Shown: one piece after another, positions 34,090 through 36,048 of the stretch
How positions within the stretch are numbered: the first letter of the stretch is position 1
Layout: each line of letters opens with the position of its first letter
Assembly: GCA_951406725.2 (NCBI GenBank)
Contig: OX597817.1
Coordinates: 50,778,001-50,842,000 of the forward strand
Length of the DNA: 64,000 nt
Direction: 5' to 3'
Source: Octopus vulgaris
Lineage: Eukaryota
Notes under the pieces: model-generated
What the model saw: the letters and a program-made list of their open reading frames with translations, nothing else
Databases searched by the model: none
Told to the model about the DNA's origin: nothing
Position numbers and translations under genes: made by a program

Positions 34090-35082
34090 AGAAGTCATCT
34101 GAATATTGGGAGAGGGATATCTCTATCATATTACACGCTGGGTATGAATATCCCGACCATCATTACTGCTGCTCAATATTCTCTGAACACGGTAAAGCTG
34201 GTTTCCCTATACTACATATGACGTCCCACGTATCATGAAAAACCAACGTCTACAAAACTGTGATGGTCTTAGGGTGTGACTCCAGGAAGGATCTCGTCAT
34301 GCCGCCCCAGAATTCTGAACAGAGCCTAAGGCTCAATTCAGAGAAACATTGTGAAGCTGATGGAGGCTGCGGTTCAAATACTGGATCGAGAATTTTGCTT
34401 CTGGAAGCCCATATGTGCGATAGTAAGAATAGGCTCCTTGCTATACCAATGGAAACAGTTAGAATTACGGAGATGTACTTGCATAGCAAGTGATTTGATC
34501 TGAGATCGTGTGCTGGAACGAAAAAAATTGCAGCGTGGAAGGTGTTTGTAAGCCATTTAAGAAACACACAAAAGCCGTTCGATTCACTTCAACATTTAAG
34601 TTTAATTTGTCAAAATATTTTCGTCGCTATAAGACCGCGACCTGTTCACTGACAAAAATCCGTGCTGCATTAGTTTTCGTGTAATTTCTACGAATTCACT
34701 GACAAAAATCCGTACTGAATTAGTTTTCGTGTAATTTCTACGAATTCACCAGCCCCAATTTCTATTCTCTTAATTTCCCCGATCGTAATCACATGGCTTA
34801 GTATGCGTAGAGGCGCGATTGGGGAAGACACCAACACAAAAACCAACCTACTTGGGAAGATCAATGAAGTATTCGAAATTTTTCCCAGGGATAGAGTGAG
34901 GATCGCATGCGCCATGTTCTAGTGTCACCTTGAGGCCGTGGTGAAAGGTGAGGGCGGTGACTTTGAATACACTGATATTCTACTTGATATTCTTTGAGAT
35001 TTTAATTTCTCTTATTTTGGATGGCATATTTTGCATTCTTTTCTTTTTATGCAAACTGTCGAATTTAGCCCGAACAATCTGT
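34090..35082 (+). mobile_element. Decayed Tc1/mariner (DD37D/maT-like) transposase relic interrupted by an HHR-bearing insertion
   Basis: Remnants VMVLGC..VMPPQ..LRLNS, YWIE..SGSPYV and TSPNF..FPDRN, INEVFEIFPRDRVRIACAMF*CHLEAVVKGEGGDFE. Insertion at about 34460-34670. Confidence 0.75.
34606..34656 (-). ncRNA. Minimal type-I hammerhead, G3-C8 core variant
   Basis: Reverse complement tttgtca GTGAACA g GTCGC ggtcttata GCGAC GAAA atat TT tgacaaa: 7-bp stem I, 5-bp stem II, palindromic AATATT stem III. Confidence 0.75.
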
Positions 35083-35636
35083 CTACACATACACACATGC
35101 ATGCATATATATACACACATATATATATAAATATATATGTATAAAATTTTTATTTTTAGGGTATATCGATTCCAGTGCCACAGAAATGAGACGTTCAAAT
35201 TAAAAATATTAAATTCAATTACTCTCAATAATTAATTCATGTATATATATATATGTATATATATATGTGTATATATATATATATATATATATATATGTAT
35301 ATATGTGTATATATATATGTATATATATATGTATATATGCATATATATATATGTATATATATATATATATATGTATGTATGTATATATATATATATATGT
35401 ATATATATATATATATATATATATATATGTGTATATATATATATATATATATATATATATATATATATATATAGTTATCGCCATACTAATATGGCATTCT
35501 TATAAAAATAGGAAAAAAGCTGTCCGCTTATTAGCTCCATGAGGCCATCGCCTTAAGTTAGCTATTTGATACACAAACTGTATCCATATAACCTTCGAAC
35601 AAGGGAGGTCAGTCGCTCCACACTACTTGACCGGCA

Positions 35637-35678
35637 GCTACAGACGCGTTTCGGGGTATTGCCCCTTTTCAATGCAGC
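35637..35678 (-). ncRNA. Minimal type-I hammerhead, U3-A8 core variant (copy 1)
   Basis: Reverse complement gctgca TTGAAAA GGGG caata CCCC GAAA cgcg TC tgtagc: 6-bp stem I, 4-bp stem II, palindromic ACGCGT stem III, GUC cleavage triplet. Confidence 0.8.
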
Positions 35679-36006
35679 GTAGCCAGCCAGTAGGTGTCGA
35701 TTCCGACAATCTCTGTTCGATGGTTTTATTTACCTAGTTTCGGTGGAATACATCCACTTGTTTTCAATAATAGAAATATTAAAATATTAAAATAACTAAG
35801 TCTCTCTAAAAGAGAACAGCGGCAGCGTTCCCGGAAAATAATAGTTATCGCCATACTAATATGGCATTCTTATAAAAATAAGAAAAAAGCTGTCCGCTTA
35901 TTAGCTCCATGAGGCCATCGCCTTGAGTTAGCTATTTGATACACAAACTGTATCCATATAACCTTCGAACAAGGGAGGTCAGTCGCTCCACACTACTTGA
36001 CCGGCA

Positions 36007-36048
36007 GCTACAGACGCGTTTCGGGGTATTGCCCCTTTTCAATGCAGC
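36007..36048 (-). ncRNA. Minimal type-I hammerhead, U3-A8 core variant (copy 2)
   Basis: Identical to 35637-35678. A third copy near 36369-36408 has a stem III substitution and is cut by the inversion. Confidence 0.8.

What the first reader, a model, noticed from the sequence alone, without database searches (positions are those of the whole stretch)
34606..36048. Natural covariation at the catalytic-core 3-8 pair: U3-A8 and G3-C8 hammerheads alongside C3-G8
Seen: core GUGAACA (G3,C8) at 34606-34656(-) with 7-bp stem I and 5-bp stem II. Core UUGAAAA (U3,A8) at 35637 and 36007(-), and in an unrelated family at 2080(-). Canonical CUGANGA occurs elsewhere. Established: positions 3 and 8 form a tertiary Watson-Crick pair and compensated variants remain active. 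Inference: double changes preserving the pair indicate selection on self-cleavage, and standard CUGANGA searches would miss these families.
Basis: partly seen in the sequence, partly recalled or inferred. Interest (0 to 1): 0.75.

Follow-up and report, generated by a model that had tools for sequence, protein, structure and literature searches.

The report
Swapped-core hammerheads in jumping genes
Three abundant jumping-gene families in this animal genome carry a small hammerhead RNA motif in which one internal base pair is U-A or G-C instead of the usual C-G while related families keep C-G, so the pair is likely maintained by selection for self-cutting; the U-A form is already published, the G-C form I found in print only as a lab mutant, and cutting is untested.

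Summary
All cited motifs are type I hammerheads with a palindromic stem III, and the variant cores are family-wide. U3-A8 holds in 100 of 100 listed copies of the 370-bp tandem family (1,141 matches) and in 92 of 100 of the 2080 family (979). G3-C8 holds in 95 of 100 of the 34606 family (6,147).

Real covariation appears among homologous families. The tandem family has a C3-G8 sister (65% identical). The G3-C8 and 2080 families are homologous to each other and to C3-G8 families. [quoted passage not shown] In 1 Mb of evenly spaced samples, 10 of 10 strict hits had a Watson-Crick 3-8 pair.

Natural U3-A8 is published (Perreault 2011; Cervera 2014). I found G3-C8 in print only as a partly active lab mutant. 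This scan noted G3-C8 before, in this genome and in others. Cleavage is untested, and G3 may be trapped by a wobble with U17. Verdict: a new variant of a known kind, moderate interest.

The parts
34606..34656 (-). Family B minimal type I hammerhead: G3 (34649)-C8 (34644), extra G after A9, 5-bp stem II, palindromic stem III, U17; predicted cut between 34613 and 34612
   Evidence: family count
34464..34670 (-). Family B terminal repeat unit (about 205 bp), the 3' end (pLTR) of a Penelope-like element; genomic copies show two preferred 3' ends about 60 nt apart and frequent inverted 5' arms
35637..35678 (-). Family A canonical-type type I hammerhead, U3 (35672)-A8; predicted cut between 35643 and 35642
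36007..36048 (-). Family A hammerhead, U3 (36042)-A8; predicted cut between 36013 and 36012; stem I continues past an internal loop
35471..36407 (-). Tandem array of 2.6 units of 370 bp (retrozyme-like), 3' end running into a TA microsatellite; the third ribozyme (U3 near 36404) is cut by the 5' junction
36405..36447 (+). Short inverted arm of the family A unit at the 5' junction
   Evidence: L001 2306-2348
2080..2116 (-). Family C minimal hammerhead, U3 (2113)-A8 (2108), 3-bp stem I; this copy has lost the 10.1-11.1 pair
1923..2126 (-). Family C terminal repeat unit, homologous to family B
2155..2269 (+). Inverted 5'-truncated arm of family C, lacking the first core strand

Best explanation
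These are type I hammerhead motifs of three high-copy mobile families, with U-A or G-C at core positions 3-8 where homologous sister families have C-G, and the pair is likely kept because the RNA of the source elements must still fold into the self-cutting shape. [quoted passage not shown] Established: G8 acts through its 2'-OH, so its base can change if the 3-8 pair is kept. Inferred: the palindromic stem III is too short for a monomer, so two motifs in a tandem transcript (or two transcripts) would pair, cut after position 17, release unit-length RNA (possibly circularised for family A), and be reinserted at TA microsatellites by the Penelope-like RT/endonuclease. G3-C8 is predicted to cut more slowly than C3-G8.
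For: The variant is the family state, not decay (95, 100 and 92 of the first 100 listed). Homology outside the ribozyme: A versus C3-G8 family D, z 8.4-10.7 and 0 of 1000 shuffles for the long downstream stretch in 5 of 5 pairs; B versus C, z 6.5-13.0 in 16 of 16 pairs; 4 of 16 C3-G8 loci match B at z 5.3-10.3 and C at z 9.6-14.4. Three family A subfamilies 75-84% identical all keep U3-A8 while N7 and stem letters change with pairing kept (read by eye). Stem II has C-G in B where C has U-A. In 1 Mb of evenly spaced samples, 10 of 10 strict and 13 of 13 relaxed hits are Watson-Crick at 3-8; controls gave 0-1 hits per Mb. Lab data: in a Penelope hammerhead the single mutants C3G and G8C abolish cutting and the double mutant partly restores it (PMC11167929, passages); strong positive epistasis for the same swap (PMC9901934, passages).
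Against: No cleavage data. The predicted monomer fold of B pairs G3 with U17 as an extension of stem I, a competing inactive form like the C3-G17 trap discussed in PMC3884650 (passages). Hammerhead mutants did not affect insertion by a Penelope protein in vitro (PMC11167929), and metazoan minimal hammerheads cut poorly in vitro (PMC4209133). Thousands of copies descend from few masters, so G3-C8 may be one event: I saw it in only one lineage here. The closest-looking C3-G8 sister of B (L218) matches B only weakly downstream (z 2.8), and 12 of the 16 C3-G8 loci did not reach z 3 against B. Several sample hits belong to the same families. No formal pair count on an alignment was made.
Confidence: 0.72

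Rival explanations
1. Family B's G3-C8 core was selected when it arose, or arose by chance in one master copy, but it is now a weak or dead ribozyme that hitch-hikes on an element that does not need cutting.
For: Cutting was dispensable for insertion in vitro. Naiad elements spread without canonical hammerheads (PMC8557442). G3-U17 wobble in the predicted fold. One G3-C8 lineage only. All four inspected parent ORFs are broken.
Against: Both changes are transversions at exactly the two paired positions, and the other core letters, both stems and the palindrome are kept across B subfamilies that differ in loop II and against C and F, which have diverged strongly downstream.
Confidence: 0.2
2. 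The fold is kept for something other than cutting, for example as a binding or positioning signal for the Penelope RT near its initiation sites, and the 3-8 pair is kept for shape only.
For: The Anolis Penelope hammerhead cut only with the protein present, and no RNA-seq read ends were found at its site. The B and C units have two 3' ends about 60 nt apart, downstream of the motif.
Against: The catalytic G12 and a non-G at position 17 are kept in all families seen. Related canonical retrozymes cut efficiently (PMC7229834).
Confidence: 0.07
3. The motifs are chance matches or decayed canonical hammerheads.
For: The 2113 copy is degenerate and folds no better than shuffles. Rfam reports no hammerhead.
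Against: Family majorities, zero reversed-pattern controls, homologous C3-G8 sisters, and no non-pairing hit in the genome sample. Rfam also misses the canonical sisters.
Confidence: 0.01

Closest known systems
Minimal type I hammerheads in pLTRs of metazoan Penelope-like elements (Cervera and de la Pena 2014, PMC4209133; read: parts 1-2 of 4 and passages of supplementary file 2; file 1 could not be searched)
   Same: Families B and C have the extra base between 9 and 10.1, G10.1-C11.1, a short palindromic stem III, a position in the terminal repeat and inverted arms. The paper reports U3-A8 families in Schistosoma (about 1,300 hits).
   Different: G3-C8 is not mentioned in the parts read. Here C-G, U-A and G-C occur in one homologous lineage.
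Non-LTR retrozymes with canonical type I hammerheads (Cervera and de la Pena 2020, PMC7229834; read: part 2 of 6 and passages)
   Same: Family A is a low-GC tandem repeat of 362-370 bp with a 6-bp stem I, 4-bp stem II and palindromic stem III; mussel retrozymes are 350-390 bp.
   Different: The core is U3-A8. No covariation or cephalopod case appeared in my term search of that paper. Expression as circular RNA is not shown here.
Natural U3-A8 core variants (Perreault et al. 2011, PMC3088659; read: section 8 and passages, supplements not read)
   Same: The same compensated pair, reported in several natural hammerheads.
   Different: Section 8 names only U3-A8 for these two positions, not G3-C8.
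Engineered C3G/G8C double mutants (Frangieh et al. 2024, PMC11167929; Roberts et al. 2023, PMC9901934; review PMC8495972; passages only. Martick and Scott 2006 and Przybilski and Hammann 2007 were not held; seen only as cited)
   Same: The same swapped pair, with partial rescue of activity.
   Different: Made in the lab; here it is the majority state of a family with at least 6,147 matches.

Membership tests
Type I hammerhead ribozyme | Core U4 G5 A6, A9, G12 A13 A14, A15.1-U16.1 and H17 at a three-helix junction | tested here: met
   (families A and B in the window; family C in other copies)
Type I hammerhead ribozyme | Watson-Crick pair between positions 3 and 8 | tested here: met
   G3-C8 or U3-A8 in 95, 100 and 92 of 100 listed copies
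Type I hammerhead ribozyme | Literal C3-G8 consensus | tested here: not met
   Same calls; published natural and engineered variants show that the literal letters are not required
Type I hammerhead ribozyme | Site-specific self-cleavage after position 17 | not testable with these tools
   Only contigs of runs guessed to be RNA were available
Rfam hammerhead families | Score at or above the gathering threshold | tested here: not met
   No hit in the window, none at E up to 10 over the B and A motifs, none in 7 sister loci that include C3-G8 motifs
Penelope-like element with C-terminal endonuclease (family B parent) | RT ORF followed by a GIY-YIG domain upstream of the hammerhead-bearing repeat | tested here: met
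   Broken ORFs in 4 of 4 extended loci; Pfam GIY-YIG E 1.4e-4, 22.5 bits against a cut-off of 22.6. The RT motif reading is recalled knowledge, not a database hit.
Penelope-like element with C-terminal endonuclease (family B parent) | 5' truncation, inverted 5' arms, optional 3' tail, TA-microsatellite targets | tested here: met
   features as described in PMC8557442
Neptune/Nematis clade | CX2-5CxxC linker before GIY-YIG, and placement in an RT tree | tested here: inconclusive
   The linker is present; no tree was built
Penelope-like element (family C) | Own RT-EN parent upstream | tested here: inconclusive
   No such ORF seen in the shown part of the output for 3 extended family C loci; membership rests on homology to B and F
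Non-LTR retrozyme (family A) | Short low-GC tandem units, each with a canonical type I hammerhead | tested here: met
Non-LTR retrozyme (family A) | Expressed as linear and circular unit-length RNA | not testable with these tools
   No run on record as RNA; contigs cannot tell circles from tandems

The most novel reading that the evidence does not exclude
One lineage of Penelope-like terminal repeats has passed through three different Watson-Crick pairs at the hammerhead's catalytic 3-8 position. Its most abundant branch seen here is an active natural G3-C8 ribozyme, made possible by a U17 context and perhaps by help from the element's protein, which would show how a ribozyme crosses a two-transversion fitness valley in nature.
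Probability: 0.4. Interest if true: 0.55.

Novelty: new variant of a known kind. Interest (0 to 1): 0.4.

Why it matters
Whether Penelope hammerheads are functional or passengers is open: they cut weakly, and cutting was dispensable in vitro. Pair-preserving changes at the catalytic 3-8 position among homologous families are an evolutionary argument that the active fold matters in vivo. The matched natural C-G, U-A and G-C versions are a ready test set. In practice, descriptors should read 3-8 as any Watson-Crick pair: the three variant patterns alone account for over 8,000 matches in this genome. The U-A half is not new, and the chemistry of the swap was already known from mutants.

Tried and rejected
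(1) Whole-window Rfam scan by E-value: swamped by microsatellite look-alikes. Targeted scans gave no hammerhead.
(2) Double changes at 3 and 8 in the exact family B context: 159 matches, 100 listed. Most are inversion junctions. The 11 true double changes are scattered (A-U 4, A-A 2, A-G 2, U-G 2, U-A 1, C-G 0) and read as decay.
(3) One pattern search for an A3-U8 family: 489 matches against 167 for the control. The excess is one repeat family without convincing stems I-III or homology to B or C. Rejected; this does not exclude other A3-U8 families.
(4) A search for a second G3-C8 lineage returned family B subfamilies in 97 of the 100 listed.
(5) Expression: no RNA holder listed. Contigs of four runs guessed to be RNA cover families A and B, but they show neither ends nor strand. 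The falling depth over the 5' part of B is also expected from 5'-truncated copies.
(6) The sequence just upstream of B looked like an intron acceptor. It proved to be part of the parent's 3' region; splicing was not tested.
(7) A formal base-pair covariation count across families was not carried out, so stem covariation is read by eye.
(8) Papers not held: PMC1986816, PMC4447102, PMC3334697 and a DOI recalled for Lunse et al. 2017.

Full report
OBSERVATION. The window lies in a 2.8-Gb animal genome of 227 contigs. A type I descriptor open at positions 3 and 8 returned three hits in the window with both stems at least 4 bp: U3-A8 at 36042 and 35672, and G3-C8 at 34649, all on the minus strand. 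The G3-C8 motif (family B) spans exactly 34606-34656, with a 7-bp stem I, one extra G after A9, a 5-bp stem II, a palindromic stem III and U17. The two U3-A8 motifs (family A) lie in a 370-bp tandem array and fold into stems I and II with a distal helix (z -3.05). The motif ending at 2080 (family C, U3 at 2113) has a 3-bp stem I and a broken 10.1-11.1 pair in this copy. No C3-G8 type I motif was found in the window itself.

THE VARIANTS ARE FAMILY STATES. Exact patterns left open at 3, 7 and 8 gave these genome counts, each with 0 for the reversed control. Family B: 6,147 matches; of the first 100 listed, 95 are G3-C8 and 5 are single changes. Family A: 1,141 matches; 100 of 100 are U3-A8. Family C: 979 matches; 92 of 100 are U3-A8, 5 C3-A8, 2 U3-G8, 1 A3-A8. 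Only the first 100 places are listed per search, and the counts are lower bounds. In 100 evenly spaced 10-kb stretches, the strict descriptor gave 10 hits: 6 C-G, 3 U-A, 1 G-C and none of the 12 non-Watson-Crick combinations; reversed sequence gave 0 and shuffles 1.0 on average. A relaxed score gave 13 of 13 Watson-Crick hits, 1 in reversed sequence and 0.2 in shuffles. Some of these hits share a family, and two are the two arms of one palindrome.

COVARIATION AMONG HOMOLOGUES, TANDEM LINEAGE. Two more subfamilies, 84% and about 75% identical to the window unit, keep U3-A8 while N7, loop II and stem letters differ with pairing preserved (by eye). A pattern for the same architecture that excluded U3 gave 80 matches, all with C3 and 73 of 80 with G8, mostly one family D with units of about 355 bp. 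D is homologous to A outside the ribozyme. The long downstream stretch scored z 8.4-10.7, with 0 of 1000 shuffles in 5 of 5 pairs. The upstream stretch was clearly significant in 2 of 5 pairs, weak in 1 and absent in 2. A global alignment had 225 identities in 347 aligned positions. So C3-G8 and U3-A8 are alternative states in one lineage.

COVARIATION AMONG HOMOLOGUES, PENELOPE LINEAGE. A profile of B picked up family C weakly. Downstream of the ribozyme, B and C align at z 6.5-13.0 in 16 of 16 pairs (0-1 of 500 shuffles), and stem II has C-G in B where C has U-A. A C3-G8 pattern with the same stem II layout gave 1,819 matches and 0 for the control. Of 16 loci fetched, 4 that keep the whole downstream part match B at z 5.3-10.3 and C at z 9.6-14.4; the other 12 reach at most z 2.8 against B, many ending early. 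One of them (L218) shares stem I and most of stem II with B but has C3-G8; its downstream match is weak. B subfamilies that differ in loop II keep G3-C8.

WHAT CARRIES THEM. B copies are about 205 bp, often with an inverted 5' arm, with two 3' ends about 60 nt apart, and often run into TA repeats. A query from the sequence upstream of longer copies fetched 30 loci; 23 carry the B motif 418-530 nt downstream, 18 of these with G3-C8. [quoted passage not shown] A second element, whose tail matches one of the C3-G8 families, encodes a protein 51% identical over 275 residues; Pfam gave no family for it. This anatomy is that of Penelope-like elements, with the linker of the Neptune and Nematis clades (PMC8557442, passages). 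No tree was built. Family A shows the same 5' inversions and TA-linked 3' end, which suggests (inference) that it is moved by the same kind of enzyme.

MECHANISM. From papers: the 2'-OH of G8 is essential and G8C is partly rescued by C3G (PMC8495972, passage); a Penelope hammerhead loses cutting with either single change and partly regains it with both (PMC11167929); short palindromic stems III work as dimers (PMC4209133). Inferred: tandem or paired transcripts form a double hammerhead, cut after position 17 and release unit RNAs that the element's RT and endonuclease reinsert. Against full activity: the predicted monomer of B pairs G3 with U17; a G3-C8 mutant was reported to be more active with G17 than with C17 (PMC3884650, data not shown there); cutting was not needed for insertion in vitro. 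That dispensability may be what lets unpaired intermediates survive (speculation). Public runs gave no usable evidence on expression or ends.

KNOWN OR NEW. Natural U3-A8 is in print for several hammerheads (PMC3088659) and for Schistosoma Penelope elements. For natural G3-C8, my searches and the passages read showed only engineered mutants. Several key papers and supplements were not available, so this is not proof of absence. Earlier notes of this scan describe G3-C8 motifs in this genome, in other animals and in phages. One note prompted my search for sister families, which I then tested. Another claims A3-U8 families, which my single search did not confirm.

VERDICT. A real feature and a new variant of a known kind. 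The U-A half is known. The G-C half, set among homologous C-G and U-A sisters, is good comparative evidence for selection on the active fold, and it awaits a simple cleavage assay. Interest 0.40.

Noticed in passing
window 34645-34749: A 50-bp direct duplication (2.1 copies) abuts the 5' end of the family B copy and repeats the start of its stem I and core.
   Followed up: no
L192-L202 and one search list (family D): Most listed family D copies have a C.A mismatch at the first pair of stem II (10.1-11.1), where a minority have U-A, although the core is canonical.
   Followed up: no
one search list (family B subfamilies): About 200 copies have a change in stem II that allows a second 5-bp register with a bulged U, like the Drosophila virilis Penelope hammerhead.
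   Followed up: partly
L067, L076, L079, L088 (family C): A subset of copies could extend stem I by three pairs beyond a 4-nt bulge; most copies cannot.
   Followed up: no
L033 near 1240, L138 near 3305, L190 near 8824: Another repeated minimal C3-G8 hammerhead family with a 4-bp stem I and 4-bp stem II.
   Followed up: no
L123 near 2203 (-): A further U3-A8 minimal hammerhead candidate unlike families A and C by eye, seen once.
   Followed up: no
L231-L238: A repeat family of a few hundred well-conserved copies that matches an A3-U8 core pattern but has no convincing hammerhead stems; identity unknown.
   Followed up: partly
window 58435-58513: A near-perfect 79-bp palindrome (reported as a weak miRNA look-alike), possibly another inverted retroelement junction.
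   Followed up: no
L279 5700-8000 (+) and L277 3769-4338 (+): Fragments of other, different Penelope-like RT ORFs lie next to family B parents.
   Followed up: no
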